Source of the DNA: Gammaproteobacteria bacterium
GTDB taxonomy: Bacteria; Pseudomonadota; Gammaproteobacteria; Pseudomonadales; Azotimanducaceae
DNA length: 54,166 bases
Assembly: GCA_018645845.1 (NCBI GenBank)
Contig: JABGVY010000132.1
Coordinates: 1 to 54,166, forward strand
Direction of reading: 5' to 3'
Below, piece by piece: positions 24,663 to 53,755 of this stretch. The notes below the pieces were generated by a model. It was not told where the DNA came from and did not search any database. It saw only the letters and a program-made list of their open reading frames with translations. A program made the position numbers and the translations under genes. Within the stretch, counting starts at the first letter, position 1. Each line of letters starts with the position of its first letter.

Positions 24663-25160
24663 ATGACTACAGCAACAACAAATCCCTTAATGGGTGAATT
24701 GGTTAAAGAGTACCAAGGGCTCTGTGGCCTGCTAGTGCAGCTACAGGAAGCGCTCACTGGCGAAAGAGAAGCATTGAGGGCGTTTAGTCCTGAGCGTACC
24801 TTCGAGGTAGCCGAGGAGAAATCAGCGGTCGCAAAAGCCATTGAGGACGCTGAAAAGCAGCGGCTGTCGCTGCTCAATCAAATCCCTGAATTGAACGCTC
24901 TACCAGGTTCAGGAGAGCTGGGCGCCATGTTCAAAGGCTTTGCACCTCTGGATGAGCTGCATCAGCGCTATCAGGACTTGCTCGAAGCATGCCGAATCGA
25001 GAATCGCCAAAATGGACTGCAAATTCGGTTTTACTCTCAGAAAACCGGTGCAGCTTTAGCGACGCTAACGGGTGATGATACTGAAGCAGGCCCAACGTCT
25101 TATACCGCTTCCGGTGATAGCAGTGAAGCCAGGTCCGGCCGATCCCTGGGCCGAGCCTAG
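24663..25160 (+). CDS. flgN: FlgN-family flagellar export chaperone
   Basis: 165 aa helical protein directly after flgM. LVKEYQGLCGLLVQLQEALTGEREALRAFSPE...KSAVAKAIEDAEKQRLSLL is FlgN-like. Confidence 0.75.
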   Translation: MTTATTNPLMGELVKEYQGLCGLLVQLQEALTGEREALRAFSPERTFEVAEEKSAVAKAIEDAEKQRLSLLNQIPELNALPGSGELGAMFKGFAPLDELHQRYQDLLEACRIENRQNGLQIRFYSQKTGAALATLTGDDTEAGPTSYTASGDSSEARSGRSLGRA

Positions 25161-25162
25161 GT

Positions 25163-25420
25163 ATGTGGCTTAGATTAGCGCTCGAAATACCCGAGTCTTC
25201 TATACGTCTCTGGTACGAAGGACGCGTGCAGCAAGTTATCGCAACCGATCATACCGGCAGGAAAGTGCAGTTCCCTATAGGCATACTCAGGCCTTTTATT
25301 ACCCATGACGGGGTTTCTGGCGTCTTTGAGCTCGAGGTTGAGCAAAGTGGGCGGCTAGCCTCGATAAAAAGATCGGTTACTCGCCACCGGGGCCCTCAGC
25401 AAGCGAACAGCTTGATCTAG
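25163..25420 (+). CDS. Small DUF2835-like protein
   Basis: 85 aa, starting 2 nt after the flgN stop. The pattern YEGRVQQVIATDHTGRKVQFPIGILRPFITHDGVSGVFELEVEQSGRLASIKR matches my memory of the DUF2835 family; this is unverified. Confidence 0.5.
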   Translation: MWLRLALEIPESSIRLWYEGRVQQVIATDHTGRKVQFPIGILRPFITHDGVSGVFELEVEQSGRLASIKRSVTRHRGPQQANSLI

Positions 25421-25584
25421 CTGTTCTGTACCAAAGACGAGACACCTTAAATGCCCCCGCAGGTCGTTAGCGAGTGAAATCGAAGCCGTCTCAATTCCTA
25501 AAGTTTCATGGTTTCGAATGCCTTAAAAACATATCGGTTATTTACGTATTATTTTACTTCCAATAAGAAACCTGTCTAAAACGC

Positions 25585-25598
25585 GGTAACCAATCGTC
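25585..25598. promoter_or_regulatory. Operator-like 14-mer GGTAACCAATCGTC; related copies lie at 25686-25699 and 25926-25939
   Basis: It matches GGTTACCAATGGTC, the head of each 240-bp unit, at 12 of 14 positions. The core GGTWACC is palindromic. The three copies are spaced 101 and 240 bp apart. Confidence 0.35.
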
Positions 25599-25684
25599 CG
25601 CTGCTGTAAATTTTGCATTTCATGTAACGCTTGCAGCCCAGTAAGAATGGTCGTTACAGCCTTCTAATGAATTCTCGTTAAGAA

Positions 25685-26164
25685 GGGTTACCAATGGTCA
25701 CAAACGGTTACTTGTTGTTCCTCCTGCACTTACCTGGGTTTTTTATAGTACCTACATGATTTATCAAACCACATATGTTTTCTCTTCCGATTTGGCCTTG
25801 GGGCCTCAATCGAGGCGACCAACAGAGTTAAGGGGCCAGTCATCGGTCTCTCTAAAAAAGGCAGTGAGCGGCAGTGTCGATATAAGTTTTGGGCCTAAAG
25901 CCGAGTGCTTTTCCTTGTTGGCAGGGGTTACTAATGGTCACAAACGGTTACTTAATGTTCTTAGTGCGCTTACTTCGGCCTTCTATAGTACCTACATGAT
26001 TTATCAAACCACATATGTTTTCTCTTCTGATTTAGCCGCGCGAATTCGCTCCAGGCGATCAAGTGAGTTAAGGGGCCGGTTATCCGTTTCTCTAAAAAAA
26101 GCAGTGAGCCGCTGTGTTGGCACAAATTTTGGATGTAATGCAGAGAGCTTCTCCCTTTTGTTGG
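25685..26164. repeat. Tandem direct repeat, 2 x 240 bp, immediately upstream of the fleQ-like gene
   Basis: The offset is exactly 240 bp. A 44-nt block is identical in both copies (25744-25787 = 25984-26027: TATAGTACCTACATGATTTATCAAACCACATATGTTTTCTCTTC). A 29-nt block has 1 mismatch (25685-25713 vs 25925-25953). The remaining stretches are diverged. Confidence 0.95.
26118..26133 (+). promoter_or_regulatory. Weak sigma54-like element in the second repeat unit, upstream of the fleQ-like gene
   Basis: TGGCAC-AAATT-TTGG: the -24 element is perfect, but the -12 element reads GG instead of GC. It is absent from the first repeat unit. Confidence 0.25.
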
Positions 26165-26203
26165 TTTTGGTTGTTTTTTTGACAGCTGAGACCTTTAGGA
26201 CGA

Positions 26204-27199
26204 TTGACGTTTAAGATGCTGGATAATACGACACGCCTTTTAGGCCAGAGCAAGTTGATGAGCGAAGTACGTAACCTCGTTGAAAAGGTTGCTGCGAGTG
26301 AAGCCAATGTTCTGATTCTAGGAGAAACCGGTACAGGAAAAGAGCTTGTTGCCCGCAGTATTCATGAAAACTCAGATCGAAAAAATGGCCCCTTTGTACC
26401 CATTAACTGTGGTGCCATACCGGCAGAACTGCTTGAGTCGGAATTATTTGGTCATGAGAAGGGTGCATTTACCGGCGCGGTCTCTGCCAGAAAAGGGCGT
26501 TTTGAACTCGCAGAAGGTGGCACGTTATTCCTCGATGAAATAGGTGACATGCCGCTCGATATGCAGGTCAAGATTCTGCGGGTTTTACAGGAAAAAGTAT
26601 TCGAGCGGGTAGGTGGAAGCAAACAGATCGCTACCGATGTCAGAATCATTGCCGCTACTCACCAAAACCTGGAGTCACAGGTTGACCGGAATGAATTCCG
26701 GAGGGATCTTTACTATCGTCTGAACGTATTTCCGATTGAAACGCCACCACTTAGAGATCGCCAGGATGATCTGCCCATCTTAATCGATTCGATGGTAGCG
26801 CAGTTTGGCAGCGGCGGTGACCACATCTCGTTTGACGAAAAATCTACTCAAGCGCTGCAGCAGTGCGAATGGGAAGGGAATGTTCGTGAGTTACTGAACG
26901 TCATCGAACGTTTATCGGTTCTCTACCCGGCAGAGATAATTGATGTCGAGCGACTGCCTGCCAAGTATCGGCCTTCAGAGCCTTGTATAGATGTCGCGAC
27001 AGAGACATCTTCAGCATTGAACGATATGGCTGAAGAGGTCGTTGATCTAAAAATGACAGTTCAGAATTTTGAAGCCAGTTTCATTCGTAAGGCATTGGAA
27101 CTTACTGCAGGCAACGTTTCTCAAGCAGCCGCTAAGTTGAGCCTTCGACGAACAACACTCGTTGAGAAGATACGGAAATATGACATCAACTTTGCGTGA
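26204..27199 (+). CDS. fleQ: FleQ/FlrA-like sigma54-dependent transcriptional activator lacking the N-terminal (FleQ/REC-like) domain
   Basis: 331 aa from TTG 26204, or 327 aa from ATG 26216. The AAA+ domain begins about 12 residues in ([40 protein letters not shown]...[15 protein letters not shown]). A C-terminal Fis-type HTH is present ([23 protein letters not shown]). Upstream sequence has stops in all frames. Confidence 0.85.
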
Positions 27200-35299: not shown

Positions 35300-35331
35300 A
35301 TTAACAAGTATACTTGTCGAGAACGATCATT

Positions 35332-36987
35332 ATGCCTGAACTATTTATTGCGGGGTCAGCTTCAGTTACGTCGAATGAAGAGCCATTACAGCCGCAAAAA
35401 AAATCTGCCGAAGGGAACGATAGTTTCTCAAAACTGCTTGAGTCAGGTGTAGAAGAAACTAAAAAAAGTGTTGAATTACAAGAAGATAGCGTAATTTCCG
35501 CAGTGTCTGGCGATAACCGCGAAGTCACCGAAGCCGCTGTTGATGCTTCAGATGTAGTGAGTTTAGTGCCTGGCGATGTAGATGATGTAAACCTTATCAA
35601 GCCGTATATTGGTAGTCCCGATGAAAATAGCGGGAGGCAAAAATTGCCACCAGCCGGCGATTTCTTACCGCAAACCGGAAGGGTTGCACATGCAGCGCCC
35701 TTGGCCAGACCATTGCTCGAAGCAGAAGCAACACCCGCTGAGCTGACGATCAAGGACATAGACCCTGCTGTAGGATCATCATTGAATGCGGAAAGAACAA
35801 TCCCCGAGTTGACGCTTAACGGGTCTTCACCGGAAGGGGCTGCTAACGCCGTTGGTACCGCTAGATTGGACACAAGTTCTATGTCGAAGCCGGTACCATC
35901 GATCGAGGCGACGCTGCGGGAAACTCTTCCTGTAGAGGGAAGAATGGCGACGAGTAGCCTGCAACCCAAGAGTCGCGTTGATGAACCGGTACTTAACTCC
36001 GCCAATTTTGCCGTTCCAACAGAGCGATCAGCGAGTGTGCAGCCAATTCCTGGCTTGATGGGTCAGATGGCAGGAAAGACCTTGGGAGCCGACAAATATG
36101 AGCCCGGAGCCCGAGAGTTGGCGCTATCTAGCCGATTTCTCTCTGCCGGACCGCCGATGCAACCCAGTGAGCCTAAGTCTGTGATTAAGGCTATAAGAGA
36201 AACAAGCCTGAACGACCTGCCCGTTGTGGGGACCCGGGGTTGGCTGAGTTCAGGTGATCAAGGCAGGATCCAGGTTGAGCGAGCAATTGGTTCTATAGAA
36301 CAGAGCTTGCCTGTGCCACCAGCGATCGGTCGGAGTCAGCTAAATATGGCAGCGCCAGTCTTGGCTGACGCGGCAATGCTTGAGTCACCAACAGTATTAC
36401 CCCAGCAGGCGGCCCCAGCTTTATCTCATGCGGCGATGTTTGAATCACCAACAGCTTTAACCCAGCAAATAGCGTCAGCCTCGCCTCATGCGGCGATGTT
36501 TGAATCACCAACAGCTTTAGCCCAGCAAACAGCGCCAGCCTTGGTTACTGCATTAAAGTCTCCTTTTACCGTACCCAACACTCAGGTATGGGTCGGTGAA
36601 ATGCGTGAAAAGATAGATATGGTCCTGGCCAGTCAGCGAAATGAAATTGAACTGAAACTTTCACCGGCGAATCTGGGCAAGATCGAAGTGCTGATTCGGC
36701 GGGACGATGACCAAACCGCGCTGACCTTCTTTGTTAAAAACCCAGAGGTTCGCGAAACGCTGGAGCAAGGACTTGCGAGATTGCATCGAAATCTCTCAGA
36801 GCAAGGTTTAACCATGGGCGATACGACCGTATCTGACCAGACTTTGGACGAGCACCGAGACTCGGAGTCTGTCAGGGCCCTCCCTGATGAAAGCAGCGAA
36901 GAAGTGGCTAACTCACTTCATTCTGATTTGCCGGGCTCTACTGCTGTCACCAGCACACCGATAGGGCTAGTCAACACCTGGGCCTGA
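35332..36987 (+). CDS. fliK: Flagellar hook-length control protein FliK
   Basis: About 551 aa. The N-terminal part is Pro/Ser/Ala-rich and probably disordered. The conserved C-terminal FliK domain is present (EIELKLSPANLGKIEVLIRRDDDQTALTFFVKNPEVRETLEQGLARLHRNLSEQG). Confidence 0.85.
   Translation: MPELFIAGSASVTSNEEPLQPQKKSAEGNDSFSKLLESGVEETKKSVELQEDSVISAVSGDNREVTEAAVDASDVVSLVPGDVDDVNLIKPYIGSPDENSGRQKLPPAGDFLPQTGRVAHAAPLARPLLEAEATPAELTIKDIDPAVGSSLNAERTIPELTLNGSSPEGAANAVGTARLDTSSMSKPVPSIEATLRETLPVEGRMATSSLQPKSRVDEPVLNSANFAVPTERSASVQPIPGLMGQMAGKTLGADKYEPGARELALSSRFLSAGPPMQPSEPKSVIKAIRETSLNDLPVVGTRGWLSSGDQGRIQVERAIGSIEQSLPVPPAIGRSQLNMAAPVLADAAMLESPTVLPQQAAPALSHAAMFESPTALTQQIASASPHAAMFESPTALAQQTAPALVTALKSPFTVPNTQVWVGEMREKIDMVLASQRNEIELKLSPANLGKIEVLIRRDDDQTALTFFVKNPEVRETLEQGLARLHRNLSEQGLTMGDTTVSDQTLDEHRDSESVRALPDESSEEVANSLHSDLPGSTAVTSTPIGLVNTWA
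36367..36546 (+). repeat. 3 x 60-bp in-frame tandem repeat inside fliK (20-aa units)
   Basis: The units are 36367-36426 (diverged), 36427-36486 and 36487-36546 (near-identical). They encode DAAMLESPTVLPQQAAPALS / HAAMFESPTALTQQIASASP / HAAMFESPTALAQQTAPALV. Confidence 0.9.
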
Positions 36988-37032
36988 CGAGAACCCGTCT
37001 GGTCAACACCTGGGCCTGACGAGAATCCGTCT
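36969..37032 (+). repeat. 2 x 32-bp tandem duplication spanning the fliK stop codon
   Basis: (A/G)GTCAACACCTGGGCCTGACGAGAA(C/T)CCGTCT occurs twice, at 36969-37000 and 37001-37032. The first copy contains the fliK TGA (36985-36987). Confidence 0.85.
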
Positions 37033-37115: not shown

Positions 37116-37131
37116 TGGCACGACAATTGCA
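37116..37131 (+). promoter_or_regulatory. Sigma54 promoter of the fliL operon
   Basis: TGGCACG-ACAA-TTGCA (exact consensus), 68 nt upstream of the fliL ATG. Confidence 0.75.
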
Positions 37132-52179: not shown

Positions 52180-52761
52180 TTTTCTATGCCTACCAACTGC
52201 ACTAGTGCTTGCTAGACTTTTAGTTGTTCTGACTAGTTATCGTCCAGGCTCAGGTTTTCTTTAGCTTTTTTCGTATTTTATTTTGATCCTGGGGCTTCCT
52301 GCCCCATATTGCCCCTGGTGATTGATATAGGATTTGGAGTCACCTCGGGACAAGCGGAGCGTTATAACCCGATCTCACTTCGGGCAAACCGAATAACAGG
52401 CGGTCGATTAGCGATTGCAGAAGGCATCGTTGCACTAAGTCCGGCCTCATCGTTAGCGTCATGCCCGCGTATTTCAAACAGACCGCACCTTTCCTCGTGA
52501 CCGCAGAGGGAATATTCGGCATGGTTTGAACTCACAAAGTAGGGTTTCAGCGCATTTATCATGGTTTCAGAGCACCTGGTTAGCCCCGGTTGAAAGCTGA
52601 GCAGGGGGCACAAGCTATTTCGGAACAAATCGTCTCGTAATTTCTGGAATAAAAGCGAACAAAAAGCTAAAGAAAGGCGCAGGCGGGCCGTTAACCACTT
52701 CGGAACCTACAAAAACCGCTGCGAAAAGCCTTCGCGGCCGATAGGTGAAGAGAAGAGGGAA

Positions 52762-52803
52762 ATGAAAATGAAAATGAAAATGAAAATGAAAATGAAAATG
52801 AAA
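52762..52803 (+). repeat. (ATGAAA)x7 perfect hexanucleotide repeat at the start codon
   Basis: Seven uninterrupted ATGAAA units are read directly from the sequence. Each unit carries an in-frame ATG. Confidence 0.98.
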
Positions 52804-53406: not shown

Positions 53407-53584
53407 CGCCAGCCTGGGATAAGACCGCTAATTCGTGGTCGTCAGAAGAGCCCGACAGTGGATGGCTGGTTCGGCAAATGGACTGAAGATCCTCACCCGC
53501 AATGGGGAGCCAATGAGCCGGCAAAGGAAAGCTGCTGTAGGCTTTTAGGATACCGCAGAGATTAGGCAGCGTTGATCGTAGCTG

Positions 53585-53638
53585 TGTAGATAGTAGCTAG
53601 TGTAGGTAGTAGCTAGTGTAGGTAGTAGGTAGTGTAGA
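53585..53638. repeat. TAG-rich 16-bp tandem repeat (3.4 copies) bracketed by an 8-bp inverted repeat
   Basis: TGTAGATAGTAGCTAG / TGTAGGTAGTAGCTAG / TGTAGGTAGTAGGTAG / TGTAGA. The flanking inverted repeat is GGCAGCGT (53565-53572) and ACGCTGCC (53642-53649). Confidence 0.9.
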
Positions 53639-53755
53639 TTTACGCTGCCAAAGAACGATGAAGGGGGGAAACCCCAGGCCCGCTGTCCTGAAGTGTTGCC
53701 GCTTATCGGGATGTACATGTGAAAAAAGTAACGATCTAGTCGTTTGTCAACGCAA

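What the first reader, a model, noticed from the sequence alone, without database searches (positions are those of the whole stretch)
25585..26164. 2 x 240-bp tandem module with mosaic conservation directly upstream of the flagellar master regulator
Two head-to-tail copies of a 240-bp unit (25685-25924 and 25925-26164) fill most of the 780-bp gap between the flgMN operon and the fleQ-like gene.

Conservation is patchy rather than uniform:
- A 29-nt head, GGGTTAC(C/T)AATGGTCACAAACGGTTACTT, has 1 mismatch between copies.
- A 44-nt block is 100% identical: TATAGTACCTACATGATTTATCAAACCACATATGTTTTCTCTTC.
- A third block reads GAGTTAAGGGGCC...TCTCTAAAAAA.GCAGTGAGC.
- Between these blocks the sequence is strongly diverged, and each copy carries a different local palindrome at the same place (GGCCTTGGGGCC vs GCGAATTCGC).

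A third copy of the head 14-mer (GGTAACCAATCGTC, 12/14 matches) sits 101 bp upstream of unit 1.

This mosaic pattern suggests selection on discrete elements. Candidates are an operator array plus a -10-like TATAGT followed by a conserved transcript 5' end with a CU-rich stretch (UUUUCUCUUC, anti-SD-like). That would mean two paralogous small RNAs, or two regulated promoters, rather than a neutral recent duplication.

An alternative is coding. An ATG lies 6 nt after each TATAGT (leaderless geometry), and one frame stays open through both units (152 aa; 240 bp = 80 codons). The peptide is poorly conserved outside MIYQTTYVFSSDL.

Only the second unit has a sigma54-like TGGCAC-N5-TTGG. I know of no described element of this kind in front of fleQ/flrA.
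Basis: partly seen in the sequence, partly recalled or inferred. Interest (0 to 1): 0.72.

Follow-up and report, generated by a model that had tools for sequence, protein, structure and literature searches.

The report
Duplicated control cassette before fleQ-like gene
A 240-bp control region in front of a flagellar regulator gene was duplicated long ago in an uncultured marine bacterium; selection has kept a few short DNA elements in both copies, plus an open reading frame whose protein sequence is free to drift, so it looks like a doubled promoter with a translated leader rather than a pair of small RNAs.

Summary
Two head-to-tail 240-bp units (25685-25924, 25925-26164; 79-82% identical, no indels) lie between a DUF2835 gene and a fleQ/flrA-type sigma-54 activator gene that lacks its N-terminal domain.

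The same two-unit array is in at least five sister lineages of one uncultured gammaproteobacterial genus. The duplication therefore predates their split.

Measured against 4-fold-degenerate sites (35.5% three-way variable), only these elements are constrained:
- in both units, a 29-nt head (three GGTYAC repeats, 10-bp phase) and a 32-nt core that starts at an ATG 6 nt after a -10-like TATAGT;
- mainly in the gene-proximal unit, an A-tract block and a TGGCAC-N5-TTGG sigma-54 promoter, which has decayed in unit 1.

Everything else drifts neutrally.

The 152-codon frame is open in every lineage. None of 183 inferred substitutions made a stop, against 7 and 8 in the other two frames (P about 0.003-0.03). 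There is no amino-acid constraint. The frame ends 1 nt before the fleQ ATG.

I found no Rfam hit, no plus-strand terminator and no significant covariation.

Best reading (confidence about 0.4): a duplicated activator-dependent promoter plus translated leader, upstream of a sigma-54 promoter. Two small RNAs is unlikely, and a neutral duplication is rejected.

The parts
25685..25924 (+). Unit 1, the distal copy of the 240-bp module
   Evidence: TRF and the repeat finder. Orthologous copies in lineages B, C, D and F.
25925..26164 (+). Unit 2, the copy next to the fleQ-like gene
   Evidence: Unit 2 copies cluster with unit 2 copies across lineages at 85-88% identity.
25686..25711 (+). Head 1: GGTTACcaatGGTCACaaacGGTTAC, three GGTYAC repeats in 10-bp phase. 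Inferred binding array for a regulator.
   Evidence: 1 of 29 sites variable among lineages A, B and C, against a neutral 35.5% (p = 5e-5). The motif's mismatch-free matches in the window are all in the two heads.
25926..25951 (+). Head 2: the same array, with T instead of C at position 8 in every lineage
   Evidence: 1 of 29 sites variable. Alignments.
25744..25749 (+). -10-like hexamer TATAGT of unit 1. The second copy is at 25984-25989.
   Evidence: Only hexamer positions 3 and 4 ever vary (TAAAGT, TATGGT). T1, A2 and T6 are invariant in all unit versions. No usable -35. Promoter function is inferred.
25756..25787 (+). Core 1: ATGATTTATCAAACCACATATGTTTTCTCTTC, the invariant segment beginning at the ORF's ATG
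   Evidence: 2 of 32 sites variable (p = 1.4e-4).
25996..26027 (+). Core 2: identical sequence, beginning at the in-frame ATG of codon 81
   Evidence: 2 of 32 sites variable. Identical to core 1 in the window.
25853..25869 (+). A-tract block of unit 1 (TAAAAAAGGCAGTGAGC): weakly constrained and decaying in lineages D and F
   Evidence: 2 of 17 sites variable (p = 0.03). Eroded in D and F.
26093..26109 (+). A-tract block of unit 2 (TAAAAAAAGCAGTGAGC), directly upstream of the sigma-54 promoter
   Evidence: 0 of 17 sites variable (p = 6e-4).
25878..25893 (+). Decayed counterpart of the sigma-54 promoter in unit 1 (TCGATATAAGTTTTGG)
   Evidence: 6 of 16 sites variable, which is neutral. Lineage B still reads TGGCATAAATTTTGG.
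26118..26132 (+). Sigma-54-type promoter TGGCAC-N5-TTGG of the fleQ-like gene
   Evidence: 0 of 16 sites variable (p = 9e-4); -24 and -12 elements invariant in five lineages. The same motif class is enriched in the window (15 sites against 4.4 expected) in front of flgB, flgA, flrB, fliK and fliL.
25756..26214 (+). 152-codon frame kept open in all lineages. Inferred translated leader; its stop TAA lies 1 nt before the fleQ ATG.
   Evidence: open in every lineage. 0 new stops among 183 substitutions, against 7 and 8 in the other two frames. Simulations give P = 0.0025-0.035. No amino-acid constraint. No Pfam or NCBIfam family. Mean pLDDT 39.
26165..26215 (+). T-rich leader and junction (GGTTTTGGTTGTTTTTTTGACAGCT ... 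TTTAAGATG)
   Evidence: 10 of 51 sites variable (p = 0.01). TTTAAGATG is invariant.
26216..27199 (+). fleQ/flrA-type sigma-54 activator, 327 aa, with AAA+ and HTH_8 domains only and no FleQ/REC N-terminal domain
   Evidence: Pfam, NCBIfam. Homologues of 470-500 aa carry PF06490; this protein does not.

Best explanation
**What it is.** The array is an old, selectively maintained tandem duplication of the upstream control region of a fleQ/flrA-type sigma-54 activator gene that lacks its N-terminal domain.

**Proposed original unit.** It carried four parts:
- (a) an array of three GGTYAC sites on one face of the helix, for a DNA-binding regulator;
- (b) about 33 bp downstream, a -10-like TATAGT with no -35, i.e. 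an activator-dependent sigma-70-type promoter;
- (c) an ATG exactly 7 nt after the hexamer, followed by an invariant 32-nt segment;
- (d) further down, an A-tract block and a sigma-54 promoter.

**After duplication.** Both copies kept (a) to (c). Only the copy next to the gene kept (d).

**How it works (inferred).**
- Transcripts that start at or upstream of the ATGs are translated in one frame: 152 codons from copy 1, or 72 codons from copy 2.
- That frame runs to a TAA 1 nt before the fleQ ATG.
- The peptide sequence is irrelevant. What is selected is uninterrupted translation of the long leader. This would protect it from premature (Rho-type) termination and deliver ribosomes to the fleQ start.
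- The gene would thus have up to three promoters: two distal regulator-dependent ones and one proximal sigma-54 promoter, the latter possibly for feedback by FleQ-like or FlrC.

**Shown:** the duplication and its age, the constraint map, loss of the sigma-54 element in unit 1, and maintenance of the open frame without amino-acid constraint.

**Inferred:** that the head binds a regulator, that TATAGT is a -10, where transcripts start, and the coupling or anti-polarity role of translation.
For: **Age and retention**
- The two-unit array sits at the same place in lineages A, B, C, D and F.
- Unit 1 copies group with unit 1 copies (82-85%) and unit 2 with unit 2 (85-88%). Paralogues are 74-88% identical.

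**Constraint map against neutral sites**
- Baseline: 538 four-fold-degenerate sites, 35.5% three-way variable.
- Head: 1/29 variable in each unit.
- Core: 2/32 variable in each unit.
- A-tract block: 2/17 in unit 1, 0/17 in unit 2.
- Sigma-54 element: 6/16 in unit 1, 0/16 in unit 2.
- All other segments, and the 169 bp upstream of unit 1, vary at the neutral rate.
- So the only constrained DNA upstream of the first ATG is the head, CTTAC and the -10-like hexamer.

**-10 pattern.** Only hexamer positions 3 and 4 vary. The 6-nt spacer to the ATG changes in sequence but not in length.

**Open frame**
- It is intact in every lineage.
- 183 inferred substitutions created 0 stops in this frame, against 7 and 8 in the other two plus-strand frames.
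- Relocation simulations give P(no stop) = 0.0025 for five lineages, 0.010 for A-D, and 0.010-0.035 without the gene-converted lineage B.
- Codons 1-80 alone give P = 0.025.
- A stop was fixed 3 codons upstream of the ATG in lineage C; the same TATAGT-to-TAAAGT change is present in F. Stops are thus tolerated just outside the frame.

**No protein-level selection**
- Synonymous fraction is 31.7%, against 28.6 +/- 3.4% expected.
- Substitutions fall 58/61/64 over the three codon positions.
- dN/dS is 0.6-0.7, the same as out-of-frame controls; fleQ gives 0.08-0.16.

**Junction and promoter**
- TTTAAGATG is invariant.
- The sigma-54 promoter is credible: the motif is enriched in front of flagellar operons in the window, and the 71% paralogue has its own TGGCACGGTTATTGT.
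Against: - No transcript data exist, so no start site is shown.
- There is no recognisable -35, and the promoter scan does not call a sigma-70 promoter in the units.
- Leaderless or Shine-Dalgarno-free initiation is uncommon in Gammaproteobacteria (my own knowledge). However, Shine-Dalgarno sequences are weak throughout this locus. That also removes 'fleQ lacks an SD' as an argument for coupling.
- The invariance of 32 nt after the ATG at all codon positions is not explained by translation alone. It needs an extra DNA- or RNA-level function.
- The open-frame statistic is moderate (P 0.0025-0.035). Lineage F, and in practice D, were found through a protein search that can only return intact ORFs. 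Gene conversion in lineage B reduces the number of independent events.
- Codon usage of the ORF is weak: log-likelihood ratio 0.059, against 0.15-0.25 for real genes.
- The strongest conservation in unit 2 is a sigma-54 promoter inside the ORF. Transcripts from it skip the ORF's start.
Confidence: 0.4

Rival explanations
1. Pure DNA enhancer or operator array. The head and core are binding sites (an upstream activating sequence, plus an IHF-like or second site) that act on the single sigma-54 promoter in unit 2. The distal copy is a second enhancer 240 bp (about 23 helical turns) further upstream. No transcript starts inside the units, and the open frame is a coincidence.
For: - All the strongest constraint is at the DNA level and independent of codon position.
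- Head 1 lies outside the ATG-initiated ORF yet is as invariant as head 2.
- The sigma-54 promoter and A-tract block are kept only in the proximal unit, as expected for a core promoter.
- The core lies about 110 bp and the head about 180 bp upstream of the -24 element. These are distances typical of enhancer-binding-protein sites (established knowledge of sigma-54 promoters).
- The core contains ATCAA, half of the IHF consensus.
Against: - It does not explain why 183 substitutions produced no stop in one frame while producing 7 and 8 in the others.
- It does not explain the -10-plus-ATG geometry kept in every unit.
- No head-like or core-like site occurs near the other sigma-54 promoters of the window.
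- The core is not a clear dyad.
Confidence: 0.25
2. ORF152 encodes a real, fast-evolving and probably disordered protein of two 80-residue repeats. It could be a trans-acting partner or anti-activator of the FleQ-like protein, which lacks its own regulatory domain. It would be translationally coupled to fleQ and may have been born from duplicated regulatory DNA.
For: - The frame is kept open in all lineages.
- Gene callers predict it in lineages A and C, and the protein clusters P0122-P0126 from the other lineages are all called as 152 aa.
- Stop and start are adjacent (TAAGATG).
- Sigma-54 activators without a regulatory domain (PspF, HrpS) are controlled by separate partner proteins such as PspA and HrpV (established knowledge).
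Against: - There is no amino-acid-level constraint.
- GC by codon position and codon usage are unlike real genes.
- No Pfam or NCBIfam family.
- No homologue outside this genus among 5.8 billion proteins.
- AlphaFold mean pLDDT is 39.
Confidence: 0.15
3. Two paralogous small regulatory RNAs. Each would be transcribed from TATAGT, with the conserved 32-nt 5' end as seed, in an OmrA/OmrB-like arrangement.
For: - Conserved 5' segment and diverged middle.
- Activator-type repeats upstream.
- A G-U-rich hairpin (unit positions 146-155 with 159-168) is 90% paired in all unit versions, with a few consistent changes.
Against: - No Rfam match, even at E = 10.
- No plus-strand intrinsic terminator in or after unit 1, so a transcript would read into unit 2 and fleQ.
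- Pairing and covariation are not above shuffle controls (36-49 of 500, then 154-296 of 500), and the RNAalifold covariation term is only -1.5 kcal/mol.
- The region holding the hairpin varies at the neutral rate.
- No outstanding target complementarity in the window (60 of 200 shuffles do as well).
- An sRNA does not explain the open frame.
Confidence: 0.08
4. Neutral, recent duplication with no function. A variant of this view is a minus-strand element, for example the 14-codon ORF MWFDKSC... behind an AAGAG motif.
For: - The variable segments evolve neutrally.
- Gene conversion occurs in lineage B.
- The minus-strand 14-codon ORF is present in most units (read).
Against: - The duplication predates the split of at least five lineages. 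Both copies keep near-invariant blocks, while neutral sites have diverged 21-27%.
- The minus-strand ORF loses its ATG in two unit versions (L087 unit 2, lineage F unit 2).
- All minus-strand frames carry 8-12 stops.
Confidence: 0.04

Closest known systems
Multi-promoter, long-leader control regions of flagellar master regulators (E. coli flhDC; Pseudomonas fleQ; Vibrio flrA) - from my own knowledge; the literature tool failed
   Same: A top-level flagellar regulator gene preceded by an unusually long, densely regulated upstream region. Discrete operator sites are conserved while the spacers drift.
   Different: - In the model organisms fleQ and flrA are sigma-70 class I genes. Here the proximal promoter is sigma-54-type.
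- The activator lacks its N-terminal domain.
- The control region is a 2 x 240-bp tandem duplication spanned by a stop-free frame. I know of no described case of that kind.
OmrA/OmrB tandem sRNAs of enterobacteria (OmpR-activated; repress flhDC)
   Same: Head-to-tail paralogues with an identical 5' segment and a diverged middle. Direct-repeat activator sites lie upstream of a -35-less promoter. There is a link to flagellar master regulation.
   Different: - No intrinsic terminator or poly-U tail.
- No Rfam hit.
- No supported structure.
- Units are 240 bp, not about 85 nt.
- The element lies directly upstream of, and co-oriented with, the regulator gene.
- An open frame is maintained through both copies.
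Translated leaders and upstream ORFs that control downstream genes through coupling or Rho polarity (e.g. tnaC-tnaA, the mgtA and corA leaders)
   Same: Translation of an upstream frame, rather than its product, is what appears to be selected. The stop lies next to the downstream start.
   Different: Known leader ORFs are short (under about 30 codons) and usually act through specific stalling peptides. This frame is 152 codons, built from a duplication, with no conserved peptide beyond what the DNA blocks impose. The mechanism is inferred here, not shown.
Sigma-54 activators without a regulatory domain (PspF, HrpR/HrpS, Rhodobacter FleQ/FleT)
   Same: The downstream protein has only AAA+ and HTH domains and full-length similarity to PspF-type architecture. 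Such proteins are controlled at the level of expression or by partner proteins.
   Different: It is most similar to FleQ/FlrA-type proteins (54-57% identical to Vibrio, Salinivibrio and Alteromonas proteins) and sits in an flrA-flrB-flrC-fliE arrangement. No partner protein has been identified.

Membership tests
Any Rfam RNA family (including OmrA/B, Qrr, CsrB/Rsm, riboswitches) | Covariance-model match at or near the family's gathering score | tested here: not met
   No match at gathering thresholds in the whole window. At E up to 10 in 25300-26400 there are only two chance-level hits (ssnA at 16.7 bits against 37.3 needed; GHRLOS), neither in the conserved blocks.
Hfq-type trans-acting sRNA gene | Rho-independent terminator (GC-rich hairpin plus U-run) ending a 50-300-nt transcript | tested here: not met
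   The terminator scan finds none on the plus strand in 25000-26600. Only a 4-bp GAGA/TCTC hairpin precedes the T-rich tract after unit 2 (read).
Structured RNA (any) | Base pairs supported by covariation above background | tested here: inconclusive
   The best helix (unit 146-155 with 159-168) is 90% paired, but 49/500 and later 154/500 shuffles reach that value, and only one pair changes on both sides. The RNAalifold covariation term is -1.5 kcal/mol. Only 14 closely related sequences were available.
Sigma-54 (RpoN) promoter | TGGCAC-N5-TTGC with GG at -24 and GC at -12, at exact spacing, upstream of the gene | tested here: met
   TGGCACAAATTTTGG at 26118-26132 matches 14 of 15, with G in place of the -12 C. 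It lies 84 bp before the ATG, is invariant in five lineages, and belongs to a motif class enriched in the window (15 against 4.4 expected).
Sigma-54 (RpoN) promoter | RpoN- and enhancer-binding-protein-dependent transcription start about 12 nt downstream | not testable with these tools
   No transcript data are available.
Sigma-70 promoter giving a leaderless mRNA | -10 hexamer with conserved A at position 2 and T at position 6, placed so that the A of the ATG is the 7th nt after the hexamer | tested here: met
   TATAGT, 6 nt, then ATG in both units and all lineages. Only hexamer positions 3 and 4 vary.
Sigma-70 promoter giving a leaderless mRNA | Recognisable -35 or extended -10, and a mapped 5' end at the AUG | tested here: not met
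   No -35 at 16-18 bp spacing and no TG extension. The scan calls no promoter in the units. The 5' end could not be tested.
Protein-coding gene under purifying selection | Open frame conserved across relatives | tested here: met
   152 codons with no stop or indel in every lineage. P(no stop) = 0.0025-0.035.
Protein-coding gene under purifying selection | Excess of synonymous or third-position change; dN/dS well below that of out-of-frame controls | tested here: not met
   58 synonymous against 125 non-synonymous changes (31.7%, against 28.6 +/- 3.4% expected). Codon positions 58/61/64. dN/dS 0.61-0.72, against 0.48-0.91 in the other frames and 0.08-0.16 for fleQ.
FleQ N-terminal (REC-like) domain remnant | Similarity of the upstream ORF to PF06490 | tested here: not met
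   Pfam scan of ORF152 at E up to 1 returns only a chance hit to AMT4_dom_C. The other two plus frames carry 8-13 stops each.
Response-regulator-type operator (OmpR/PhoB-like direct repeats) | Direct hexamer repeats with a 10-11-bp period upstream of a -35-less promoter | tested here: met
   GGTTAC-N4-GGTCAC-N4-GGTTAC, ending 33 bp before the -10-like hexamer in both units. This is only a resemblance. The binding protein is unknown and untestable here.

The most novel reading that the evidence does not exclude
A tandem duplication of promoter DNA created a 152-codon reading frame that selection now keeps open, although its amino-acid sequence drifts freely. Two readings follow. It may be a very long 'sequence-agnostic' translated leader that couples ribosomes to, and shields the mRNA of, a flagellar master regulator lacking its N-terminal domain. 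Or it may be a de novo gene caught early, born from regulatory DNA and still carrying live operator sites and an internal sigma-54 promoter.
Probability: 0.3. Interest if true: 0.75.

Novelty: new variant of a known kind. Interest (0 to 1): 0.5.

Why it matters
- **Natural dissection of a control region.** The two copies have been diverging since before at least five lineages split. Comparing them shows which parts are needed twice (the regulator array and the ATG-initiated core) and which only once (the A-tract block and the sigma-54 promoter).
- **An unusual regulatory layout.** The flagellar 'master' activator here has lost its regulatory domain and sits behind a sigma-54 promoter. This implies feedback or an upstream tier that differs from the Vibrio and Pseudomonas paradigm.
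- **Translation selected for its own sake.** If the stop-free but otherwise unconstrained 152-codon frame is truly translated, it would be a clear bacterial case of translation being selected over a long leader, or of gene birth from promoter DNA. Both are directly testable with stop-codon insertions in a reporter.
- **Limits.** The organism is uncultured, the element is confined to one genus, and every functional step is still inferred.

Tried and rejected
- **Rfam.** Gathering thresholds on the whole window and permissive thresholds on the region gave nothing.
- **Genome-contig scan with the FleQ-like protein.** It was flooded by generic sigma-54 activators and returned no relative above 57% identity, so this was a wasted scan.
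- **Metagenome-contig scan with the invariant head 18-mer.** Only two true module contigs came back (lineages A and C), plus 11 single hits whose flanks show no similarity to the module. No second genomic location was found.
- **Protein search with ORF152.** Only six clusters were found, all 152 aa and all from this genus.
- **More distant FleQ-like loci.** The 71% relative in a patatin / HemolysinCabind context and the 60% relative behind fliS-fliT-PilZ have no module and no coupled upstream ORF.
- **A partial 'unit 0' or third head upstream of unit 1.** Local alignments are no better than shuffles, and the region is neutral.
- **Three candidate hairpins.** None beat the controls.
- **Minus-strand 14-codon ORF with an AAGAG motif.** The start codon is lost in two unit versions, so it was dropped.
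- **Remnant of the missing FleQ N-terminal domain.** No Pfam similarity.
- **Programmed +1 frameshift fusing ORF152 to FleQ-like (GTT TAA G).** No prfB-type context, and an unconstrained N-terminus is implausible. It was considered only and rated at about 3% or less.
- **Lack of a Shine-Dalgarno at fleQ as an argument for coupling.** Dropped, because SDs are weak at many genes here.
- **Shared motif between the module and other sigma-54 promoter regions in the window.** None seen.
- **sRNA seed-target scan.** No outlier.
- **Literature searches.** All five attempts (and one repeat) failed with time-outs. Comparisons with published systems therefore rest on my own knowledge.
Full report
**1. 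The observation**

- Tandem Repeats Finder reports 25685-26117, period 240, 1.8 copies, 82% matches and no indels.
- The repeat finder gives two 240-nt copies at 79% identity.
- The 44-nt block occurs exactly twice, with none expected by chance.
- The head differs at one base between units, and the third block is present in both.
- A 152-codon ORF (25756-26214) spans both units.
- TGGCACAAATTTTGG occurs only in unit 2 (26118-26132).

Some details need correcting.
- The array lies in a 795-bp gap between a DUF2835 gene (25163-25420) and the ATG at 26216.
- The 'third head copy' at 25585 is no better than chance: 144 of 500 shuffles score as well.
- The head is three direct GGTYAC hexamers with a 10-bp period. 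The pattern's four mismatch-free matches in the window all lie in the two heads; one 1-mismatch match lies elsewhere, and 0.38 are expected by chance.

**2. Context and relatives**

The window is a flagellar gene cluster of an uncultured marine gammaproteobacterium. NCBI names its proteins only as 'Gammaproteobacteria bacterium'.

The gene order is flgA-flgM-flgN-DUF2835, then the array, then a fleQ/flrA-type sigma-54 activator, then flrB-like, flrC-like, fliE and onward.

The activator is 327 aa. It starts directly at its AAA+ domain and has no FleQ/REC N-terminal domain.

I recovered the same locus from metagenome contigs through the FleQ-like protein, FlgN and the ORF:
- lineage A, the window's own species (L081-L085, L116);
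- lineage B (L086-L088, L098, L100; FleQ-like 93% identical);
- lineage C (L094-L097, L114; 95%);
- lineage D (L118);
- lineage F (L117);
- a sixth lineage, E, known from protein and gene order only.

Every lineage has exactly two units with no indel. Nothing more distant carries the module:
- a 71% relative in a non-flagellar context and a 60% relative behind fliS-fliT-PilZ do not;
- the ORF152 protein has no homologue outside the genus;
- an exact scan for the invariant head 18-mer found no other true location.

**3. Age and mode of evolution**

Unit 1 copies cluster across lineages (82-85% identity), as do unit 2 copies (85-88%). Paralogues within a lineage are 79% (A), 88% (B) and 74% (C) identical. 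The duplication is therefore older than the lineages.

In lineage B the two units share derived states, which indicates gene conversion.

Four-fold-degenerate sites in flanking genes are 73-79% identical between lineages. Of 538 such sites, 35.5% vary among lineages A, B and C.

**4. Constraint map**

Against that neutral baseline:

| Element (unit positions) | Unit 1 variable sites | Unit 2 variable sites |
|---|---|---|
| Head (1-29) | 1/29 (p = 5e-5) | 1/29 (p = 5e-5) |
| Core (72-103) | 2/32 (p = 1.4e-4) | 2/32 (p = 1.4e-4) |
| A-tract / GCAGTGAGC block (169-185) | 2/17 (p = 0.03) | 0/17 (p = 6e-4) |
| Sigma-54 element (194-209) | 6/16 (neutral) | 0/16 (p = 9e-4) |

- The leader to the ATG (26165-26215) has 10/51 variable sites (p = 0.01).
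- All other segments, and the 169 bp upstream of unit 1 (62/169), vary at the neutral rate.
- Lineages D and F confirm the pattern. The A-tract block and the sigma-54 counterpart of unit 1 erode further, while those of unit 2 stay intact.
- In the -10-like TATAGT, only hexamer positions 3 and 4 ever change. The 6-nt spacer to the ATG changes in sequence but never in length.

The mosaic pattern is therefore purifying selection on a few elements. After duplication both copies kept the head and core, and only the gene-proximal copy kept the core promoter region. A neutral duplication is excluded.

**5. The sigma-54 promoter**

TGGCAC-N5-TTGC-type sites are enriched in the window (15 against 4.4 expected). 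They lie in front of flgB, flgA, flrB, fliK and fliL. The site in unit 2 matches 14 of 15 positions, lies 84 bp before the ATG, and is invariant. The 71% relative has its own TGGCACGGTTATTGT. A sigma-54 promoter for this fleQ-like gene is well supported at the sequence level. Its activity and its activator are untested.

**6. RNA hypotheses**

- Rfam gives nothing.
- No intrinsic terminator lies on the plus strand.
- I tested three candidate helices. The best is a G-U-rich 10-bp stem at unit positions 146-155 with 159-168. It is 90% paired, but no more than shuffles allow.
- The other two helices are no better than the controls.
- The RNAalifold covariation term is -1.5 kcal/mol.
- The conserved 32-mer has no outstanding complementarity to start regions in the window.

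Two discrete small RNAs is therefore unlikely, although 14 closely related sequences give little power.

**7. The reading frame**

This was the unexpected result.
- The 152-codon frame is open in every lineage. The other five frames carry 8-13 stops each.
- On a five-lineage tree, 183 inferred substitutions created no stop in this frame. They created 7 and 8 new stops in the other two plus-strand frames.
- I relocated the same substitutions at random. P(no stop) is 0.0025 for five lineages and 0.010 for A-D. Without the gene-converted lineage B it is 0.010 (A, C, D, F) and 0.035 (A, C, D).
- Codons 1-80 alone give P = 0.025.
- In lineage C a stop was fixed three codons upstream of the ATG. The same TATAGT-to-TAAAGT change is present in F. 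Stops are thus tolerated just outside the frame.

Yet there is no protein-level selection.
- 31.7% of changes are synonymous, against 28.6 +/- 3.4% expected.
- Substitutions fall 58/61/64 over the three codon positions.
- dN/dS is 0.6-0.7, the same as in out-of-frame controls; fleQ gives 0.08-0.16.
- Codon usage is weak.
- No family matches, and AlphaFold gives a mean pLDDT of 39.
- The frame ends at a TAA 1 nt before the fleQ ATG, within an invariant TTTAAGATG.

Caveats:
- Lineage F, and in practice D, were found through a search that can only return intact ORFs.
- Gene conversion reduces the number of independent events.
- A single 240-nt unit is open in some frame by chance 8.5% of the time.

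**8. Synthesis**

The model that accounts for most facts has the following parts.
- Each unit is a regulator-dependent promoter cassette: a GGTYAC array, a -35-less -10, and a start at or near the ATG.
- Its transcript is translated in a frame that must stay open as far as the fleQ start.
- A sigma-54 promoter is kept only in the proximal copy.
- Translation of the long leader, not its product, would be selected, for example to prevent Rho-type polarity and to hand ribosomes to fleQ.

I put this at about 0.4. The main rival is a pure DNA enhancer array for the sigma-54 promoter (0.25). It explains the DNA-level constraint as well but not the open frame. A real, fast-evolving protein partner of the FleQ-like activator is possible (0.15). 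Two sRNAs (0.08) and neutral or antisense readings (0.04) are unlikely.

The 32-nt invariance after the ATG at all codon positions remains unexplained under every model. It points to an additional operator or RNA-level site.

**9. Comparison with known systems**

The literature tool failed, so this rests on my own knowledge.
- The arrangement resembles the long, multi-input control regions of flhDC, fleQ and flrA.
- Superficially it resembles the OmpR-driven tandem OmrA/OmrB genes.
- In its inferred logic it resembles translated leaders that act through coupling or polarity.
- It is not a member of any Rfam or Pfam family.
- It differs from the Vibrio and Pseudomonas paradigm in three ways. 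The regulator gene has a sigma-54 promoter, the regulator lacks its N-terminal domain, and the control region is a frame-preserving tandem duplication.

I classify it as a new variant of a known kind, with interest 0.5.

Noticed in passing
window 36970-37032: A 32-nt unit, GTCAACACCTGGGCCTGACGAGAACCCGTCTG, is repeated twice in tandem (96% identical). It lies about 85-150 bp upstream of the sigma-54 promoter TGGCACGACAATTGC at 37116 in front of the fliL-like gene. It looks like a second duplicated enhancer site in the same cluster.
   Followed up: no
window 26216-27199; L089-L092: The FleQ/FlrA-type activator has no N-terminal FleQ/REC domain (327 aa, against about 480-490 aa in Vibrio and Alteromonas homologues). 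A 71%-identical protein that also lacks the domain sits in a non-flagellar context (patatin and HemolysinCabind genes) behind its own TGGCACGGTTATTGT.
   Followed up: partly
window 7643, 23132, 23389, 27269, 35284, 37116 and others: TGGCAC-N5-TTGC sites are strongly enriched (15 against 4.4 expected). They mark the flgB, flgA, flrB, fliK and fliL operon fronts, so flrB has its own sigma-54 promoter in the 120-bp gap after the fleQ-like gene.
   Followed up: partly
window 36370-36541: A 60-nt repeat of 2.9 copies (83% matches) lies inside the fliK-like ORF 35314-36987. It is a coding repeat in the hook-length-control protein.
   Followed up: no
window 25468-25478: The 11-nt TTAGCGAGTGA is invariant across lineages, inside the otherwise indel-rich stretch just after the DUF2835 stop. 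A GAGAC...GTCTC long-range complement surrounds it. Its function is unknown.
   Followed up: no
L096, L099-L103 (contig ends): Many metagenome contigs of this genus end inside the 2 x 240-bp array. Assemblers break at the repeat, so the element is under-represented in public assemblies.
   Followed up: partly
window 52760-52803 and 53574-53639: Short simple tandem repeats, (AAATGA) x 7.3 and a 16-nt unit x 4.2, lie near the right end of the window, outside the flagellar genes.
   Followed up: no
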